Part shown: in pieces, positions 7,463-55,163 of the stretch
Layout of the letters: each line of letters opens with the position of its first letter
Numbering within the stretch: position 1 is the first letter of the stretch
Sequence record: MH243438.1
Origin: Escherichia phage vB_EcoM_NBG1
Length of the DNA: 64,000 nucleotides
Strand: one strand, 5' to 3'
The notes under the pieces: generated by a model
What the model saw: only the letters and a program-made list of their open reading frames with translations
What the model was told of the DNA's origin: nothing
Database searches by the model: none
Made by a program: the position numbers and the translations under genes

Positions 7463-7882
7463 TTATGCAAAAGATGCTGGACAATATTTTTTGATTTGGA
7501 ACTCAGGAACTACCATGAACTGTCCAGCGAAAACGATGTTATAAAGCTTAACACCATCTTCTACCCATTGGTCCGAAATAAAACCAGCAACTTGATTCGT
7601 TGTCCATGGAGACCCGTCAGTTGCAGCAGCAATAGTAAATTCATGGTCTTTTACAACTAAAACAGACCTGCACAGTTTCCATTTGAACGCACGTTCTTCT
7701 GGCTCAATGAACTGGCTTTTAACGTAACCAATGTTACCATCGGCGTCACGAACTTTAACTTGGTTACGACCAAAAACCGGATCACTCACAGAAAGAACTT
7801 CAACCAACTTCCCAGCAACTTTAGAGCGAGAAGCATCCGATACGTGTACATAATCACCAATAGAGAGATTTGCAATATTCAT
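7463..7882 (-). CDS. MotB-like protein, paralog 1 (KOW-like N-terminus)
   Basis: 139 aa; N-terminal IGDYVHVSDASRSKVAGKLVEV and C-terminal GFISDQWVEDGVKLYNIVF shared with the next ORF; T4 motB map position. Confidence 0.55.
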   Translation of the reverse strand: MNIANLSIGDYVHVSDASRSKVAGKLVEVLSVSDPVFGRNQVKVRDADGNIGYVKSQFIEPEERAFKWKLCRSVLVVKDHEFTIAAATDGSPWTTNQVAGFISDQWVEDGVKLYNIVFAGQFMVVPEFQIKKYCPASFA

Positions 7883-7891
7883 AATAATTCC

Positions 7892-8389
7892 TTAAGCTTT
7901 ACGAGGAGACACATAGCGAGTGATTTCAGATTCTTCAACAACTCGGAAGTCACCTAAGAATACAATATTGTATAGCTTTTTACCATCTTCTACCCATTGG
8001 TCACTAATGAAGCCGCACATAGTATCAGTTTTGCTTGGATAACCGTATTCGTCGATGTAATCAAATTCTTTATCGGTTATAAATTCAACGCCTTTGCAAA
8101 GGGCCCATTTGAACTGTGTAGTAGGCTCAACGATATCGCTTGAAGCAAAGTGTGCAGGTGCAACTTCTTCGCTTGAAGCAAATTGAACTCGTATATGTTT
8201 TTCCAGGAATTTAGGACTCACGTAAGCATACTGGGCATCTTGTCCGCCAAAACTGGGCATGATTCGAACTTTAACTTCTTTAACACGTCCCATGCCGTTA
8301 GTACGAAGCCCTGCTACTTCAACCAGACGACCTGCAGCTTTAGAACGAGAAGCAGGAGATACACGAAGGATTTCACCAATAGTAATCAT
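7892..8389 (-). CDS. MotB-like protein, paralog 2
   Basis: 165 aa; shares SRSKAAGRLVEV and GFISDQWVEDGKKLYNIVF with paralog 1. Confidence 0.55.
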   Translation of the reverse strand: MITIGEILRVSPASRSKAAGRLVEVAGLRTNGMGRVKEVKVRIMPSFGGQDAQYAYVSPKFLEKHIRVQFASSEEVAPAHFASSDIVEPTTQFKWALCKGVEFITDKEFDYIDEYGYPSKTDTMCGFISDQWVEDGKKLYNIVFLGDFRVVEESEITRYVSPRKA

Positions 8390-8417
8390 AATTTCTCTCT
8401 TTGTTTAAATTGAATTC

Positions 8418-8446
8418 ACTATACTCCATCCATCCTTGGATGTACA
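8418..8446 (-). promoter_or_regulatory. early sigma70-like promoter, PeSL-type variant (TTGTACA-N17-TATAGT)
   Basis: minus strand TTGTACATCCAAGGATGGATGGAGTATAGT, about 25 nt upstream of the ATG at 8389. Confidence 0.55.
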
Positions 8447-8449
8447 ACA

Positions 8450-8944
8450 TTAATTAAGGATATTAACCACAGCACTACGCGGAACTACACTAAAATCACC
8501 TGCATGAACTACGTTCAGAAGTTCAACACCGTCTTCAATCCACTGATCAGTTACCCATCCACAAACTGGACCTGCGAACGGACGTCGAATTGAAACAGCT
8601 TTACACAACAAATCAGTAGGCTCAATAGGCTTAATCAGAGTACCGTACATACAAGCGATATCCATATCAATACAGATGTCTTTAACGGGTTCTACTTCTT
8701 CAATCAACAGTTCAAAGTCTGTGCTTGGAAGGGCGGTAGTAGAAATTGTACCATATGAATTTTTAATTTCTAAGAATAACCAAGGGCCTTCAGCTTGTTT
8801 GATGAAGTTAACAATAGTGAAACTGTTACCTTGAGTGGCACCTAAAATTTCACAAAACTTTTCATAAGCTCGCACTGAAGCACCGTACCAGTTGATTTGT
8901 TTTTCGTCTTTCAGGATGTAAGTAGCCGTAGTATTGATATTCAT
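8450..8944 (-). CDS. MotB C-terminal-domain-like protein, paralog 3
   Basis: 164 aa; C-terminus GWVTDQWIEDGVELLNVVHAGDF matches paralogs 1 and 2; N-terminus unrelated; own PeSL-type promoter. Confidence 0.55.
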   Translation of the reverse strand: MNINTTATYILKDEKQINWYGASVRAYEKFCEILGATQGNSFTIVNFIKQAEGPWLFLEIKNSYGTISTTALPSTDFELLIEEVEPVKDICIDMDIACMYGTLIKPIEPTDLLCKAVSIRRPFAGPVCGWVTDQWIEDGVELLNVVHAGDFSVVPRSAVVNILN

Positions 8945-8975
8945 AATGTTTTTCCTGTTTGGTTAAGATAGAAAG

Positions 8976-9005
8976 ATTATACTCCAACCATCCTTGGTTG
9001 TAAAC
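8976..9005 (-). promoter_or_regulatory. early promoter cassette (GTTTAC-N17/18-TATAAT with internal inverted repeat)
   Basis: minus strand AGTTTACAACCAAGGATGGTTGGAGTATAAT; identical 30-nt copies at 50967-50996 and 51987-52015. Confidence 0.6.
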
Positions 9006-9010
9006 TGATT

Positions 9011-12068: not shown

Positions 12069-12222
12069 AATATTTTCCTCTGTCTTACGGACGTTAAGGT
12101 CATTTAGCTGATAGGTCTATAATATCATGCCCTCAGGTAGTGTACACTCTTTTTTCGTAAAAATGCTTTAATTTTTTATGTGTTATAATGGTTCTGAGTT
12201 CCATCCGGTTATTCCAATTCAG

Positions 12223-13470: not shown

Positions 13471-13497
13471 GATAGACCTCCATTTAAAGATAAGCCT

Positions 13498-13526
13498 ATC
13501 ATAACACGAGAGGAGGGAATGTAAAC
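13498..13526 (-). promoter_or_regulatory. early promoter upstream of modB-like gene (GTTTAC-N17-TATGAT)
   Basis: spacer contains CCTCC complementary to the downstream GGAGG SD. Confidence 0.5.
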
Positions 13527-13690
13527 TACTTTTTAAGCTTTCCTACTAAAGGTCCATCAGGGCCAGGTTGTTCTAACATGAATAAGGATGCTTTAAAAAG
13601 CAATGTCAACCCTTTCACCATTCGATACCATGTCTCAAAGTCTTTTTCCTTGATTTCTAGTAAGAATTTCTCTTTCAATTTCTCTTTCAT
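13526..13690 (-). CDS. small hypothetical protein (54 aa)
   Basis: manually translated MKEKLKEKFLLEIKEKDFETWYRMVKG..; ATG overlaps upstream stop as ATGA; below ORF-track size cutoff. Confidence 0.3.
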   Translation of the reverse strand: MKEKLKEKFLLEIKEKDFETWYRMVKGLTLLFKASLFMLEQPGPDGPLVGKLKK

Positions 13691-20158: not shown

Positions 20159-20207
20159 CTCCAGTAGTTGATAGGTCTATAATAACACAACTACTGGAGA
20201 AGTAAAC
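20159..20207 (-). promoter_or_regulatory. early promoter (GTTTAC-N17-TATTAT) with perfect 12-bp inverted repeat pairing spacer and SD
   Basis: arms 20159-20170 (SD GGAG of gene 19835-20152) and 20189-20200 (spacer); -10 at 20179-20184; -35 at 20202-20207. Confidence 0.55.
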
Positions 20208-47409: not shown

Positions 47410-47440
47410 ACCCTTACCATATTAGATAAGGGTATTTATA
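47410..47440 (-). promoter_or_regulatory. late promoter TATAAATA plus SD-sequestering hairpin upstream of gene 49
   Basis: TATAAATA at 47433-47440; inverted repeat ACCCTTA/TAAGGGT (47410-47433) with the gene 49 SD AAGGG in the 3' arm. Confidence 0.6.
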
Positions 47441-47442
47441 AT

Positions 47443-47622
47443 TTAATAAATGTTATAAAAGTCACGATGGAAACGTTTGTATTGACGAATCATTCTTTTA
47501 GTAGGACGTGTTACCGAAATGATTGAAGTCCTCATGTTCGGATTGTTTGGAGCACCAATTATAACAAATTTCCAAGATTTTTGGCCGTTTGTTCTTTCGC
47601 CAAAAAATAATGCAGTTTTCAT
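47443..47622 (-). CDS. small basic protein, paralog 1
   Basis: 59 aa (MKTALFFGERTNGQKSWKFVIIGAP..VTRPTKRMIRQYKRFHRDFYNIY) by manual translation; shares RPTKR..FY..Y with ORF 48047-48217. Confidence 0.4.
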   Translation of the reverse strand: MKTALFFGERTNGQKSWKFVIIGAPNNPNMRTSIISVTRPTKRMIRQYKRFHRDFYNIY

Positions 47623-47631
47623 AATAAGCCC

Positions 47632-48045
47632 TTAACTTAAACGTCTTTCTAAATATTCAATGTATTCCGCTGCGGCTTGCATCAGATTACCTTCATAACC
47701 GTCATTATTTTCTTGACCGGCTAATTTAGCTAAAGCATAAGAAATACGTTCACCTTCGAATTCGCCAAGTCCACCATCACAAACTACTTGGTCAATTTCT
47801 TCGAGTTCATCTATTGAATGGGATTCCCAGAAGCACCAAAGAGAAGTATCACGGTCATAGATGCAAAGTTTCTCACCTGTGTTCAACATCACTTCGTTAA
47901 TGCCATGGTCGCCATAACCATCTTCGGTAGTAGTACCAATTACCTTGATGATTGTTCCTTTCTTTAATTCAGGAAACTTGACTTGTAGTTCTTCATCTTC
48001 TTTAACAATCTTGAACCATTTACCGCGAGTTTCAGAAATATTCAT
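47632..48045 (-). CDS. hypothetical protein
   Basis: 137 aa from ATG 48045 (MNISETRGKWFKIVKEDEEL..). Confidence 0.55.
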   Translation of the reverse strand: MNISETRGKWFKIVKEDEELQVKFPELKKGTIIKVIGTTTEDGYGDHGINEVMLNTGEKLCIYDRDTSLWCFWESHSIDELEEIDQVVCDGGLGEFEGERISYALAKLAGQENNDGYEGNLMQAAAEYIEYLERRLS

Positions 48046-48046
48046 A

Positions 48047-48217
48047 TCAATATTCTCTATAAAAGTTACGATGAGAACGTTTAGCTTTGCGAAGCTGACG
48101 TTTAGTAGGACGAACTGTAAATGGTTGTCCAGAGAAAAAATTAGGATCGGTTTTAATAAGCAAATACCAATCATGTTTGCCATTTTTTAATAAACGGTAC
48201 AATAATTTAACTTGCAT
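48047..48217 (-). CDS. small basic protein, paralog 2
   Basis: 56 aa from ATG 48217 (MQVKLLYRLLKNGKHDWYLLIK..TVRPTKRQLRKAKRSHRNFYREY). Confidence 0.4.
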   Translation of the reverse strand: MQVKLLYRLLKNGKHDWYLLIKTDPNFFSGQPFTVRPTKRQLRKAKRSHRNFYREY

Positions 48218-48345: not shown

Positions 48346-48702
48346 TTAACCGCGGAGCTTATTGAGCTCTTCATAATCAATCCAGGATTCTAACCCAGAT
48401 GGCAGGTCACATTCGATGTTCCACAGAAGCTCTTCAATGGCTTGTAGACGATTGAGTTCTTCAACGGTAATAGTAACCATTGGTTCAACCGGTTTTGCCT
48501 TTTTAACCATCATGTCATTCATCAGGACGTACAAGTCGTCACGAACAACGGTATCATTCCAACCCCATGATTTGGCTGCATACGCTAATGATGATGGGAG
48601 CACATTTAAAACTTCAATAATAGATGGAGATTCAGGACCAAGCTCAGATACACAAACTTCGTATACATCTTGGAAATCTTTAAGATTTAATGAATATGTC
48701 AT
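48346..48702 (-). CDS. hypothetical protein
   Basis: 118-aa acidic ORF; its start region is a 22-nt duplicate of the nrdC 3' end. Confidence 0.55.
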   Translation of the reverse strand: MTYSLNLKDFQDVYEVCVSELGPESPSIIEVLNVLPSSLAYAAKSWGWNDTVVRDDLYVLMNDMMVKKAKPVEPMVTITVEELNRLQAIEELLWNIECDLPSGLESWIDYEELNKLRG

Positions 48703-48721
48703 TTAAAATATTCTCGCAGTT
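48700..48721 (-). repeat. 22-nt direct repeat copy A (CATTTAAAATATTCTCGCAGTT)
   Basis: identical to 49015-49036; contains ATG of gene 48346-48702. Confidence 0.8.
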
Positions 48722-49017
48722 TATTGTTCTACACATGCACAGGAAACTTCGAAATCAGGACCGTCGTACTTCCAGTGATATTCACCAACAGGAATCCAGT
48801 CACCATGCTCGTTTTCTTCATAGTCCTCAGGCTCAAGGCCAACGAATCGCCATTGGACACCGATGATTCTATTACCCATCATTACTCGAAATTCGCCCCA
48901 TGGATTATCAATAGCATACTGAATATCGTTCTTAGCACGAGAGCACATTTCTTGATATAACAAAGTTTCTAATTCGTCCTGGTCATAAGGGCCTGGGAAA
49001 GTTAAATCGATATTCAT
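48721..49017 (-). CDS. hypothetical protein
   Basis: 98-aa acidic ORF with C-terminal CAC; ATGA overlap with nrdC stop. Confidence 0.55.
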   Translation of the reverse strand: MNIDLTFPGPYDQDELETLLYQEMCSRAKNDIQYAIDNPWGEFRVMMGNRIIGVQWRFVGLEPEDYEENEHGDWIPVGEYHWKYDGPDFEVSCACVEQ

Positions 49018-49277
49018 TTAAAATATTCTCGCAGTTGGTCAAATCCACCAATGTGACTTCCGTCAGGAGCAAACACTTGAGGCATCGTCAATCCAACATG
49101 TGTTTCACGTCCAAGCTTAGCCAGAAGCTCAGCAATTTTCTCATCGTCGAACACACCTTTTTCTGGCATAACATTAATGAATTCGAATGGTTGTTTCTTA
49201 ACAGTCAGCAATCGTTTCGCATTATCACAATAAATGCATTTATGAATAGTAGAGTCATACCCGTACACTTTAAACAT
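49014..49277 (-). CDS. nrdC: thioredoxin/glutaredoxin NrdC
   Basis: 87 aa from MFKVYGYDSTIHKCIYCDNAKRLL, near-identical to remembered T4 NrdC; CIYC redox motif. Confidence 0.88.
   Translation of the reverse strand: MFKVYGYDSTIHKCIYCDNAKRLLTVKKQPFEFINVMPEKGVFDDEKIAELLAKLGRETHVGLTMPQVFAPDGSHIGGFDQLREYFK
49015..49036 (-). repeat. 22-nt direct repeat copy B (3' end of nrdC plus ATG of downstream gene)
   Basis: identical to 48700-48721; encodes the nrdC C-terminus QLREYFK. Confidence 0.8.
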
Positions 49278-50938: not shown

Positions 50939-50966
50939 AATATTTTCCTCTCGTTAAGATAAATTC

Positions 50967-50996
50967 ATTATACTCCAACCATCCTTGGTTGTAAAC
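50967..50996 (-). promoter_or_regulatory. early promoter cassette (identical PeSL-type copy)
   Basis: plus strand TTATACTCCAACCATCCTTGGTTGTAAAC; upstream of ATG 50938. Confidence 0.6.
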
Positions 50997-51000
50997 TATT

Positions 51001-51960: not shown

Positions 51961-51986
51961 TTTATATTCCTCATGTTGAAAAATTT

Positions 51987-52015
51987 ATTATACTCCAACC
52001 ATCCTTGGTTGTACA
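51987..52015 (-). promoter_or_regulatory. early promoter cassette (identical PeSL-type copy)
   Basis: plus strand TTATACTCCAACCATCCTTGGTTGTACA; upstream of ATG 51960. Confidence 0.6.
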
Positions 52016-53011
52016 TCATTCCTTAAGAAGTTTTACTACTTGAATAAGATTAGCTCGTTCTGTTTTATTTTTACCATTTAAGCCTGCTAATCGTGAGATT
52101 TCATCGTCAGTCTGTTGAATAGTTACATTAAGTTCGTTAATCAAAGCTTCAAAGTATTTGATTTGCTCAGCATGTTTTGATTCAAATTTCTGAACAGGAA
52201 TAACGTCTTGGTTCAGTTCATCAATAAGGTCTTTAAGAGCATCTTCTTGGTTGATATCATATTCAACTTCTTTTATTTCTTCAACGAGCTCGTCTTTATA
52301 TCTAACGTCTTTTAGTCCTGGTGCTGGTCCTGAAATCTCTTCTTTAAGAGTACAAACATATCCAATACGGTATCCAATGCCGTCTCGCTTGATATCAACT
52401 TCGTCGATAAATCCACAATGTTTAAGCCCGGAGCCGATTATGTCAAAATATCCTTGACGTCGTCCTTCAAACGTTACACGAACTACTAAGACAGTTTTAC
52501 CTGCAACCTTTTGAAGCTCACATTTATAAAAGTCAGTTGAACCTGAATAACGTGGATTAGTTTTAAAGTTCATCTGACGATCTAGGCCCATTTGTAAGCG
52601 TGCTGTTACGGCCATAAAACGTGTTTGGTTCTCGTTAAGATGAGCAACAATCCATTTCAAAGGCATTTTACACTGTTCACGGCCGAACAAATCAGTACGT
52701 CCTAAATTACGCAGGATATTGTTAGAGTTAATCATCGACAGAACGTTAAGTTTATTCAGCGCGCTGAAGATTCCATCGGCCATTGATTTTCCGTAACCTT
52801 TACACGCTTTAATAAGTGCTCGCGGTAGATTAGTATAGATTTCAGACGGCATATGAAAATCAAATTTACTAACCAGTAATTGATGAACTTGGATAGCAAT
52901 TTGTTCATAATTAAGTGCTCTGCGATCATTATGGTCTTTAAACCACACTTTAATCTGTGAAGCACATAAACCGTTAATTTCATGTTTTACCGCATCAGAT
53001 GTAATGCTCAT
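52016..53011 (-). CDS. hypothetical protein with C-terminal coiled coil
   Basis: 331-aa ORF; degenerate PeSL-like element upstream (53041-53070). Confidence 0.65.
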   Translation of the reverse strand: MSITSDAVKHEINGLCASQIKVWFKDHNDRRALNYEQIAIQVHQLLVSKFDFHMPSEIYTNLPRALIKACKGYGKSMADGIFSALNKLNVLSMINSNNILRNLGRTDLFGREQCKMPLKWIVAHLNENQTRFMAVTARLQMGLDRQMNFKTNPRYSGSTDFYKCELQKVAGKTVLVVRVTFEGRRQGYFDIIGSGLKHCGFIDEVDIKRDGIGYRIGYVCTLKEEISGPAPGLKDVRYKDELVEEIKEVEYDINQEDALKDLIDELNQDVIPVQKFESKHAEQIKYFEALINELNVTIQQTDDEISRLAGLNGKNKTERANLIQVVKLLKE

Positions 53012-53601: not shown

Positions 53602-53659
53602 GTTTTACCTCCAGTAGTTGATAGGTCTATAATAACATAACCATAGACCTTGTAAACAA

Positions 53660-53947
53660 CTAAAAGAAACTTTTTTCGGTATTTTTTCCACTGAACCAAA
53701 CAGACTTCGGGATTTTTTGTAATTTTTCAGATTTAAGTTTCTCTTCCTGTTCTTTCTTATATACACCCTTGTCGTACTGGAGCATCTCTATGGCATTCTT
53801 TTGCAAACGATCTAAGGTAATTAAGGCTTTAGTTTTTCCTTTCAAGGAAGAGTCCTGGCGAACCTCCTCACTATATTGCATCGTAGAACTAACCATACGA
53901 TGAGCATACAGTTCGACTGCGGCTTTAATTTTTTGCATAAAATCCAT
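53660..53947 (-). CDS. hypothetical protein
   Basis: 95-aa ORF. Confidence 0.55.
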   Translation of the reverse strand: MDFMQKIKAAVELYAHRMVSSTMQYSEEVRQDSSLKGKTKALITLDRLQKNAIEMLQYDKGVYKKEQEEKLKSEKLQKIPKSVWFSGKNTEKSFF

Positions 53948-55086: not shown

Positions 55087-55163
55087 TTCGTTTCGATAGG
55101 TCTATAATAACATATCCTAAAAGCATGTACACTACTTTTTTAAAAATATTTTAACCCCCTAAA

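What the first reader, a model, noticed from the sequence alone, without database searches (positions are those of the whole stretch)
48700..49036. 22-nt direct repeat duplicating the nrdC 3' end flanks an inserted gene
The last 21 nt of nrdC plus the overlapping ATG (CAACTGCGAGAATATTTTAAATG, giving QLREYFK*) are exactly repeated 315 nt downstream. The copy is non-coding and provides the start context of the next gene. The 98-aa gene 48721-49017 sits precisely between the copies, the signature of cassette insertion by short-homology recombination.
Basis: seen in the sequence. Interest (0 to 1): 0.55.

Follow-up and report, generated by a model that had tools for sequence, protein, structure and literature searches.

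The report
Recombination scar flanking phage gene 49.3
In this T4-like (RB69-group) phage, a 23-base copy of the end of the nrdC gene sits after the small neighbouring gene 49.3, marking an old unequal recombination that left 49.3 present in some relatives and cleanly absent in others; this is a clear example of a known kind of phage genome shuffling, not a new mechanism.

Summary
On the minus strand, a 23-nt exact direct repeat (AACTGCGAGAATATTTTAAATGA; 49014-49036 and 48699-48721, 315 nt apart) brackets a 98-aa gene. Chance expectation is about 1e-4.

The window is a Mosigvirus. The 98-aa gene is the orthologue of T4 gp49.3 (Pfam Phage_T4_Y04L). In T4, JS10 and metagenomic relatives, 49.3 follows nrdC with the same ATGA overlap, so the left junction is ancestral. 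The right junction is the scar. It is a non-coding copy of nrdC's last codons fused to the start of the 118-aa gene, exactly as in "empty" relatives such as RB69, where nrdC abuts that gene directly.

Phage records split into 56 filled and about 82 empty. The empty junction equals a crossover between the two copies. Filled and empty states each occur with both divergent alleles (118 aa and 111 aa) of the downstream gene. The tail is the only sequence shared between the heterologous blocks, so it has been a crossover or deletion site again since it formed.

The tail is not a promoter, a terminator, an RNA structure or a dispersed element. This is a new instance of short-repeat-bounded gene gain and loss. 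The cargo's function is unknown.

The parts
49014..49277 (-). nrdC (phage glutaredoxin/thioredoxin, 87 aa). Its last 7 codons plus stop form copy 1.
   Evidence: Pfam Glutaredoxin and PHROG 22. About 81-83% DNA identity to T4 nrdC. Annotated nrdC in all related records.
49014..49036 (-). Repeat copy 1: AACTGCGAGAATATTTTAAATGA. Coding end of nrdC ((Q)LREYFK*) with an ATGA overlap onto the start of 49.3.
   Evidence: The same nrdC end is conserved in T4, JS10 and PST-type phages.
48721..49017 (-). 98-aa gene, the orthologue of T4 gene 49.3 (Pfam PF26871 Phage_T4_Y04L, PHROG 4203). Function unknown. This is the 'cargo' of the indel.
   Evidence: tblastn to T4 49.3, E=5e-15, 38% identity. PHROG 4203, E=3.6e-45. 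Homologues carry PF26871. AlphaFold pLDDT 92.6 with no significant fold match.
48699..48721 (-). Repeat copy 2: a non-coding duplicate of the nrdC tail. It spans the last base of the 49.3 stop, the 18-nt spacer (48703-48720) and the ATG(A) of the 118-aa gene. It carries the GAG Shine-Dalgarno-like triplet 10 nt before the ATG.
   Evidence: Present in all 56 Mosigvirus records that have 49.3. Drifts independently of copy 1. GAG is annotated as the RBS in phage Mizar.
48346..48702 (-). 118-aa gene, occupying the position of T4 49.2. In 'empty' relatives it overlaps nrdC directly through ATGA. It exists as two divergent alleles (118 aa and 111 aa), and its C-terminal ~45 aa form a module found as a separate small gene elsewhere.
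   Evidence: PHROG 11244, with the C-terminus matching PHROG 3402. Allele alignment. Empty-site records. Module distribution.
48722..49036 (-). The 315-nt indel unit, in one of the equivalent frames. It is present in 'filled' genomes and exactly absent in 'empty' genomes.
   Evidence: Relatives span 786 bp versus 1101 bp. The L001/L008 junction is identical to a copy 1 x copy 2 crossover product.
50967..50995 (-). Early-promoter-like site (TTTACA-17-TATAAT), part of repeat family D1. Probable start of the operon that contains the locus.
47410..47433 (-). Terminator-like hairpin before gene 49. Probable end of the operon.
   Evidence: A terminator is annotated at the equivalent place in NRG-P0074, ATK47 and PhAPEC2.

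Best explanation
The repeat is a duplication scar left by one unequal, essentially illegitimate recombination between two co-linear T4-type genomes that carried alternative gene sets after nrdC.

One parent had the widespread arrangement nrdC-ATGA-49.3. The other had nrdC-ATGA-118aa gene, the arrangement still seen in RB69. The join linked the stop codon of 49.3 to a point 21-23 nt before the end of nrdC in the second parent.

The recombinant therefore reads nrdC | 49.3 | last 7 codons of nrdC (now non-coding) | 118-aa gene. Both genes are kept, and the 118-aa gene keeps its native translation start region (GAG, an A/T-rich spacer, then ATG).

Since then the 315-nt unit (49.3 plus one tail) has behaved as a presence/absence cassette in Mosigvirus populations. 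It is mostly passed around by ordinary homologous recombination in the long flanks. At least once more it was exchanged or deleted by recombination within the 21-23-nt tail itself.

Shown: the repeat, the exact empty site, the ancestral left junction, the restriction to Mosigvirus, the independent drift of the copies, and the four haplotype combinations with the tail as the only shared sequence.

Inferred: the polarity (empty junction older than filled), a single origin, the role of the tail as a ribosome-binding region, and the enzymology.
For: 1. The 23-nt exact repeat is far beyond chance.
2. RB69 matches the synthetic copy 1/copy 2 crossover junction at 100%. L001, L008 and L012 show nrdC-ATGA-118aa with no other difference.
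3. Record counts: filled+118 is 42, filled+111 is 14, empty+118 about 61, empty+111 about 21. All 56 records with a Mosigvirus-type 49.3 carry the tail, as does the single metagenome locus.
4. The nrdC-ATGA-49.3 junction is shared with T4, JS10 and a metagenomic relative (L036). In these and in the other relatives outside Mosigvirus, 49.3 is followed by no nrdC-tail copy; in most of them it ends in AAATGA overlapping the next gene.
5. Copy 2 reproduces conserved NrdC codons (LREYFK*) out of any reading frame and abuts the ATG exactly as in the empty site, so it derives from an nrdC|118-type junction.
6. nrdC directly abutting other genes through the same ATGA is common, as in PST-type phages, moskry and Merlin. 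Comeau et al. 2014 already describe a non-PeSL '49.2/.3 exchange' at this locus.
7. The copies drift independently. Copy 1 has CTG or CTA. Copy 2 has GAAAATTTT, CCGCG or ATGT variants and an A/C difference just upstream.
8. CCU7 (filled+118) and LF82-4 (filled+111) are 60/60 identical up to and through the tail, then only 50-65% identical for about 210 nt. LF82-4 versus PhAPEC2 (empty+111) shows the mirror pattern.
9. Filled and empty states are interspersed in the trees of both flanks.
10. A second repeat-bounded indel lies about 700 nt away: pin is lost through a crossover between its paralogous flanking ORFs.
Against: - No Mosigvirus 'donor' with 49.3 but without the tail was found, and the nearest non-Mosigvirus 49.3 proteins are only 56-68% identical. 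The parents are therefore inferred, not observed.
- The exact join is ambiguous. The base between TAA and CTGCG is A in some genomes and C in others, so the microhomology is 0-2 nt.
- The data cannot separate an unequal crossover between two genomes from integration of a small circle.
- How many times the cassette has been lost or gained through the tail cannot be counted. Only one or more extra events is required.
- The ribosome-binding role of the tail rests on sequence and on another group's annotation. It has not been measured.
Confidence: 0.75

Rival explanations
1. Campbell-type mini-circle model. A 315-bp circle carrying 49.3 plus one nrdC tail is excised by recombination between the repeats. 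It re-integrates by homologous recombination at the nrdC tail of an 'empty' genome. The tail would then be a functional attachment site, a non-promoter analogue of the PeSL mini-circle mechanism.
For: The structure tail-49.3-tail versus a single tail is exactly what circle integration or excision predicts. PeSL mini-circles of 400-1400 bp were demonstrated in RB49/phi1 infections (Arbiol 2010). The four-gamete pattern needs an event inside the tail.
Against: There is no direct evidence for circles. 23 nt is well below the ~50 bp cited as needed for efficient recombination (Singer et al. 1982, as cited). A 315-bp circle is very small. Ordinary flank-mediated exchange plus one rare tail event explains everything. 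The first origin of a tail-bearing circle would still need an illegitimate join.
Confidence: 0.12
2. Deletion-only polarity. The filled arrangement, tail included, is ancestral for Mosigvirus. Every empty genome arose from it by repeat-mediated deletion, and there never was an insertion.
For: Deletion between short direct repeats is the best documented of these reactions (Albertini 1982, as cited). 49.3 after nrdC is ancestral in the subfamily. Empty junctions leave no scar, so they cannot be polarised directly.
Against: This does not explain how a non-coding copy of conserved nrdC codons came to lie immediately before the ATG of the 118-aa gene, because that junction is the empty-site junction and must have existed first. 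nrdC abutting other genes through the same ATGA is widespread outside Mosigvirus. No relative outside Mosigvirus has the tail after 49.3.
Confidence: 0.08
3. The two copies are independent instances of a conserved regulatory or translation-initiation motif kept similar by selection, and have nothing to do with any rearrangement.
For: The tail contains a GAG, an A/T-rich spacer and an ATG, and is annotated as an RBS. Many T4 early genes are joined by AAATGA.
Against: Identity is 23/23, including positions that matter only as NrdC codons. The other gene junctions of the same operon do not share the motif, and only two copies exist in 64 kb even with 3 mismatches allowed. In 2.9 million viral contigs the 21-mer occurs only at the nrdC end and after a Mosigvirus 49.3. 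There is no promoter, terminator or RNA structure. Copy 2 accumulates substitutions.
Confidence: 0.03
4. A mobile element (IS-like, with a target-site duplication) or a homing-endonuclease-driven insertion placed the gene here.
For: Direct repeats flanking an inserted segment resemble target-site duplications. T4-type phages are rich in homing endonucleases.
Against: The cargo is a single 98-aa protein of a T4-specific family with no transposase or nuclease signature. The cassette has no terminal inverted repeats. No endonuclease gene was found among ORFs of 95 aa or more from 43 to 57.5 kb. The gene is at its ancestral position.
Confidence: 0.02

Closest known systems
PeSL (promoter-early stem-loop) mediated modular shuffling in T4-type phages (Arbiol et al. 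2010, PMC2839356; Comeau et al. 2014, PMC4122927)
   Same: A short repeated sequence that ends in a Shine-Dalgarno sequence plus ATG flanks a small non-essential ORF in a plastic early region. Relatives carry a single copy of the repeat and lack the ORF. The reaction is in principle reversible. The inserted or retained gene keeps its expression signals.
   Different: The repeat here is 23 nt rather than roughly 40-70 nt. It has no -35/-10 promoter and no stem-loop. It is not a dispersed family and has only two contexts. It is derived from the coding end of nrdC. It lies inside a translationally coupled operon, not at a transcription unit boundary. True PeSL-like promoter repeats do exist elsewhere in the window (families D1 and D2).
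Deletions and duplications between short direct repeats (Albertini et al. 1982 in E. coli lacI; classical T4 rII deletion end-points, the latter from my own knowledge)
   Same: The indel is bounded by a short direct repeat, and exactly one copy is retained in the shorter allele. No dedicated recombinase is involved. Comeau et al. 2014 invoke this mechanism for the 49.2/49.3 exchange between T4 and PST at this same locus.
   Different: The classical cases are laboratory deletions. Here the repeat was itself created by the rearrangement, and the polymorphism persists in nature at about 40:60, reassorted with flanking alleles.
The pin cassette about 700 nt downstream in the same window
   Same: A gene (pin, 47632-48045) is flanked by direct repeats. 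Relatives (CCU7, PTK, PTE-Eco05) lack it and carry a hybrid of the two repeats.
   Different: The repeats there are two paralogous ~57-59-aa ORFs at about 76% identity in their 3' parts, not a duplicated gene tail. The crossover lies in a shared CGTRACTTTTATA.

Membership tests
PeSL element (Arbiol 2010) | Contains a T4 early promoter (-35 and -10 boxes) | tested here: not met
   No promoter-like site on the minus strand at either copy. The nearest lies at 50995-50967.
PeSL element (Arbiol 2010) | Contains a stem-loop (terminator-like) structure | tested here: not met
   RNA folds around both copies and around the RB69 junction give z-scores of -0.5, +0.4 and -0.35. There is no terminator-like site.
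PeSL element (Arbiol 2010) | Ends with a Shine-Dalgarno sequence and the start codon of the downstream gene | tested here: met
   GAG lies 10 nt before the ATG in both copies and is annotated as an RBS in phage Mizar. Function was not measured.
PeSL element (Arbiol 2010) | A multi-copy family dispersed through the hyperplastic regions | tested here: not met
   Only two copies in 64 kb with up to 3 mismatches. Only two contexts in the IMG/VR collection.
Short-direct-repeat-bounded indel (Albertini-type) | The longer allele has the segment flanked by a direct repeat, and the shorter allele keeps exactly one copy and nothing else changes | tested here: met
   RB69 is 100% identical to the predicted crossover product.
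Short-direct-repeat-bounded indel (Albertini-type) | No element-encoded recombinase, transposase or nuclease | tested here: met
   The cargo and its neighbours show no such domains.
IS/transposon with target-site duplication | Terminal inverted repeats and a transposase | tested here: not met
   The cassette ends carry no terminal inverted repeats. The 98-aa cargo belongs to a T4-specific family.
T4 gp49.3 family (Pfam PF26871 Phage_T4_Y04L), for the cargo protein | Sequence homology to T4 gp49.3 over the full length | tested here: met
   tblastn to T4 49.3 gives 100% coverage and E=5e-15. PHROG 4203, E=3.6e-45. All homologues carry PF26871. The local Pfam copy lacked this model.
T4 gp49.3 family (Pfam PF26871 Phage_T4_Y04L), for the cargo protein | Syntenic position between nrdC and pin | tested here: met

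The most novel reading that the evidence does not exclude
The duplicated nrdC tail may be more than a passive scar. It could be a working 'portable joint': a minimal translation-initiation region that doubles as an attachment site. The 315-bp 49.3 unit could then excise as a mini-circle and re-integrate behind nrdC in any empty-site genome. That would be a promoter-less counterpart of PeSL shuffling, operating inside translationally coupled operons. It would imply that conserved gene ends with ATGA overlaps are general docking points for ORF exchange in T4-type phages.
Probability: 0.12. Interest if true: 0.5.

Novelty: new member of a known kind. Interest (0 to 1): 0.3.

Why it matters
This is a very clean natural record of how T4-type phages gain and lose small accessory genes without any mobile-element machinery. 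One unequal join duplicated 23 nt of a conserved gene end, and that kept the downstream gene's translation signals intact. The resulting cassette then segregated through the genus at roughly 40:60.

The four haplotype combinations show that a homology of only 21-23 nt has been used again in nature. That gives a concrete, testable substrate for measuring short-homology recombination or deletion in a T4-type phage. It also extends the PeSL idea to joints that carry only translation signals.

It does not reveal a new mechanism, and the function of gp49.3 remains unknown.

Tried and rejected
- **Donor search.** I looked for a 'donor' arrangement, meaning a Mosigvirus-type 49.3 without the tail. 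The deep protein search found 63-68% identical relatives only in non-Mosigvirus contexts without the tail.
- **Cargo function.**
  - Sequence searches gave nothing: the local Pfam copy, PADLOC and PDB sequences.
  - The family has only 7 clusters at 50% identity.
- **Regulatory readings of the tail.** No promoter, terminator or RNA structure was found.
- **Homing endonuclease or transposon.** None nearby and no terminal inverted repeats.
- **Flank phylogenies.** They do not polarise gain versus loss, because filled and empty states are fully interspersed.
- **Literature on Mosigvirus indels and on the T4 homology requirement.** These searches gave only indirect citations.

Full report
**1. Observation**

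All genes of the region lie on the minus strand. The ORFs, in order of transcription, are:
- nrdC, 49014-49277, whose product ends in ...GGFDQLREYFK*
- a 98-aa ORF, 48721-49017, whose ATG overlaps the nrdC stop (ATGA)
- a 118-aa ORF, 48346-48702

The exact repeat is the 23-mer AACTGCGAGAATATTTTAAATGA at 49014-49036 and 48699-48721, 315 nt apart.

Copy 2 begins on the last base of the 98-aa gene's TAA. It covers the 18-nt spacer and ends on the ATG(A) of the 118-aa gene.

This is not chance:
- No shuffle gave two matches.
- The iid expectation is 1.3e-4.
- Simulated sequences never exceeded 18 nt.
- Apart from the promoter repeat families, it is the longest exact direct repeat in the window.

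**2. What the genes are**

The window is a Mosigvirus, an RB69-like T4-type phage. Its nearest records are phiC120, SF, PTK and similar phages. Transcription runs nrdC.3-like, nrdC.2-like, nrdC.7-like, nrdC, 98 aa, 118 aa, 49.1-like, small ORF A, pin, small ORF B, gene 49 (endonuclease VII), nrdD.

The 98-aa protein is the orthologue of T4 gp49.3:
- tblastn to T4 49.3 over its full length gives E=5e-15.
- PHROG 4203 matches at E=3.6e-45.
- All database homologues carry Pfam PF26871, Phage_T4_Y04L.

The family is small, with 7 clusters at 50% identity. Its model is confident (pLDDT 92.6: two helices on a five-stranded sheet) but has no significant structural neighbour. No defence or anti-defence family matches it. 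Its function is unknown.

**3. Relatives with and without the gene**

A 1101-nt query over the locus found 56 phage records that cover it fully. A second class spans 786 nt instead of 1101, which is exactly 315 nt shorter. In NRG-P0074 and RB69, nrdC overlaps the 118-aa gene directly through ATGA. Their junction is base-for-base what a crossover between the window's two copies would give. RB69 matches the synthetic junction at 100%.

The downstream gene exists as two alleles, 118 aa and 111 aa. They are 66-68% identical as proteins, and the divergence is concentrated in the first ~70 codons.

Junction-specific queries give the counts below. These are database records and include RefSeq/GenBank duplicates.

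| Site | Downstream allele | Records | Note |
|---|---|---|---|
| Filled | 118 aa | 42 | |
| Filled | 111 aa | 14 | 12 near-identical LF82 isolates, plus TH12 and Mizar |
| Empty | 118 aa | about 61 | by subtraction |
| Empty | 111 aa | about 21 | |

Every one of the 56 records with a Mosigvirus-type 49.3 carries the tail copy. So does the one metagenome contig found.

**4. Which junction is the unusual one**

In T4, JS10 and a metagenomic relative (L036), 49.3 follows nrdC directly with the same ATGA overlap. In Merlin, L035 and L037 one small ORF intervenes. The left junction of the 'insert' is therefore the ancestral, widespread one.

In most of these relatives outside Mosigvirus, 49.3 ends in AAATGA overlapping the next gene. 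None of them has a second copy of its own nrdC tail.

The Mosigvirus-specific novelty is the right junction. There the 49.3 stop, TAA, is followed by one base (A or C) and then CTGCGAGAATATTTTAAATG, which is nrdC's LREYFK* codons read out of frame and non-coding. That copy abuts the ATG of the downstream gene exactly as the real nrdC end does in empty genomes.

So the right junction must derive from a pre-existing nrdC|118-type junction. nrdC abutting alternative genes through the same ATGA is common, as in PST-type Tequatroviruses, moskry and Merlin. Comeau et al. 2014 already list a non-PeSL '49.2/.3 exchange' between T4 and PST at this locus and attribute it to short chance homologies.

**5. 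Most likely history and mechanism**

A genome with nrdC|49.3|... and a genome with nrdC|118|... underwent a single unequal exchange. It joined the end of 49.3 to a point 21-23 nt before the end of nrdC in the other genome. Microhomology at the join is at most 'AA'. The base there is polymorphic, A or C.

The product keeps both genes and duplicates the nrdC tail. The tail carries the GAG, the A/T-rich spacer and the ATG that serve the downstream gene. The annotators of phage Mizar mark GAG as the RBS at both copies. A recombinant that keeps the tail therefore keeps expression of the 118-aa gene, which is a plausible reason why this join survived. This last step is inference.

The duplication is old within the genus:
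- It occurs in several Mosigvirus species.
- The two copies drift independently. Copy 1 has a synonymous CTG or CTA. Copy 2 has GAAAATTTT, CCGCG or ATGT variants.
- The window happens to preserve a perfect pair.

**6. Later use of the tail**

Filled and empty states are interspersed in neighbour-joining trees of both flanks, as expected with frequent homologous exchange.

A more specific result comes from the right-junction alignment:
- CCU7 (filled+118) and LF82-4 (filled+111) are 60/60 identical through the 49.3 3' end and the tail. They are then 50-65% identical for about 210 nt, then identical again.
- LF82-4 and PhAPEC2 (empty+111) are unrelated upstream of the tail and nearly identical downstream.

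The tail is thus the only sequence shared between heterologous blocks on both sides. All four combinations exist. That requires at least one further exchange, or a second deletion, inside the 21-23 nt.

This is short-homology recombination, but it happened after the repeat arose. It is below the ~50 bp usually quoted for efficient recombination (Singer et al. 1982, as cited), so such events should be rare.

**7. What it is not**

- The tail has no promoter, terminator or significant RNA structure.
- It is not dispersed. There are two copies in the window even with 3 mismatches allowed. In 2.9 million viral contigs it occurs in only two contexts, the nrdC end and after a Mosigvirus 49.3.
- There is no transposase, no terminal inverted repeats and no homing endonuclease within about 8 kb.
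- It is therefore not a PeSL, an IS or a homing element. True PeSL-like early-promoter repeats are present elsewhere in the window (families D1 and D2).

**8. Context**

The whole nrdC-to-gene-49 interval is a mosaic of small modules within one early operon. That operon appears to run from a promoter-like site at 50995-50967 to a terminator-like hairpin at 47433-47410.

A second repeat-bounded indel lies about 700 nt downstream. The pin gene is flanked by two paralogous small ORFs. CCU7, PTK and PTE-Eco05 lack pin and carry a hybrid ORF whose crossover lies in a shared CGTRACTTTTATA.

**9. Verdict**

There is a precise, repeat-bounded cassette polymorphism. However, the gene sits at its ancestral position. 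The repeat is the scar of an unequal join between two alternative arrangements, not the homology that guided an insertion. Short-homology recombination is evidenced only for later reassortment or deletion.

This is a new, well-documented instance of a known kind of event. Interest is modest.

Noticed in passing
window 47443-48217 (small ORF A 48047-48217, pin 47632-48045, small ORF B 47443-47622, all minus strand); L023, L026, L033: The pin gene is flanked by two paralogous small basic ORFs (repeat D3, 55 nt at 76% identity). Phages CCU7, PTK and PTE-Eco05 lack pin and carry one hybrid ORF: ORF A for codons 1-53, then ORF B's last codons and downstream sequence. This is a second repeat-mediated cassette loss in the same operon. 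NRG-P0074, mogra and RPN187 have ORF A and pin but no ORF B.
   Followed up: yes
window 8409-8451, 8967-9009, 50958-51000, 51978-52020 (family D1); 12110-12151, 13489-13530, 53620-53661, 55095-55136 and 20159-20187 (family D2): Two families of 40-nt repeats that, read on the minus strand, look like T4 early promoters (GTTTACA ... TATAAT). D1 has a palindrome between the boxes. They are candidates for PeSL-type elements upstream of nrdC.3-like and neighbouring genes. Exact shared stretches reach 27-31 nt.
   Followed up: partly
window 48346-48702(-); L004, L013-L015, L006, L037: The 118-aa protein is modular. Its C-terminal ~45 residues (PHROG 3402, labelled 'antitoxin from a toxin-antitoxin system') occur as a separate small gene in PST-type Tequatroviruses, moskry, Merlin and a metagenomic phage. 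In one IMG/VR contig (L015) this module is fused to the 71-aa 'MMLEGTDYIHDYRG' gene. The N-terminal half is the part that differs between the 118-aa and 111-aa alleles.
   Followed up: partly
L008 (RB69, AY303349) about 2054-2411: The RB69 record has one extra G (GGAACGGACAC) in the 118-aa gene. It splits the gene into RB69ORF092c and ORF091c. This is either a real frameshift or a sequencing error in the reference genome.
   Followed up: no
window 7463-8944(-): Three tandem paralogous genes (139, 165 and 164 aa) share a C-terminal motif GF(I/V)(S/T)DQW(V/I)EDG..L.N(I/V)VF.G.F.VV. A 21-nt exact repeat (7553/7982) lies in this motif.
   Followed up: no
L026 (phage PTK) copy 2: In PTK, copy 2 reads CCGCGAGAATATTTTAAATGT. 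The second codon of the downstream gene is changed (MSYS instead of MTYS), and the relic TGA after the ATG is lost.
   Followed up: no
protein P0011 (1109 aa): A large metagenomic protein shows three partial matches (E=3.4e-7) to residues 27-68 of the 49.3-like protein, with only a weak hit to a phage ACT-like domain. It may contain a repeated 49.3-like sub-domain.
   Followed up: no
window 48686-48697 and 49010-49021: A 12-nt inverted repeat (TTTAATGAATAT / ATATTCATTTAA) lies between the start of 49.3 and codons 2-5 of the 118-aa gene. It is probably fortuitous. Its arms do not coincide with the cassette ends.
   Followed up: no
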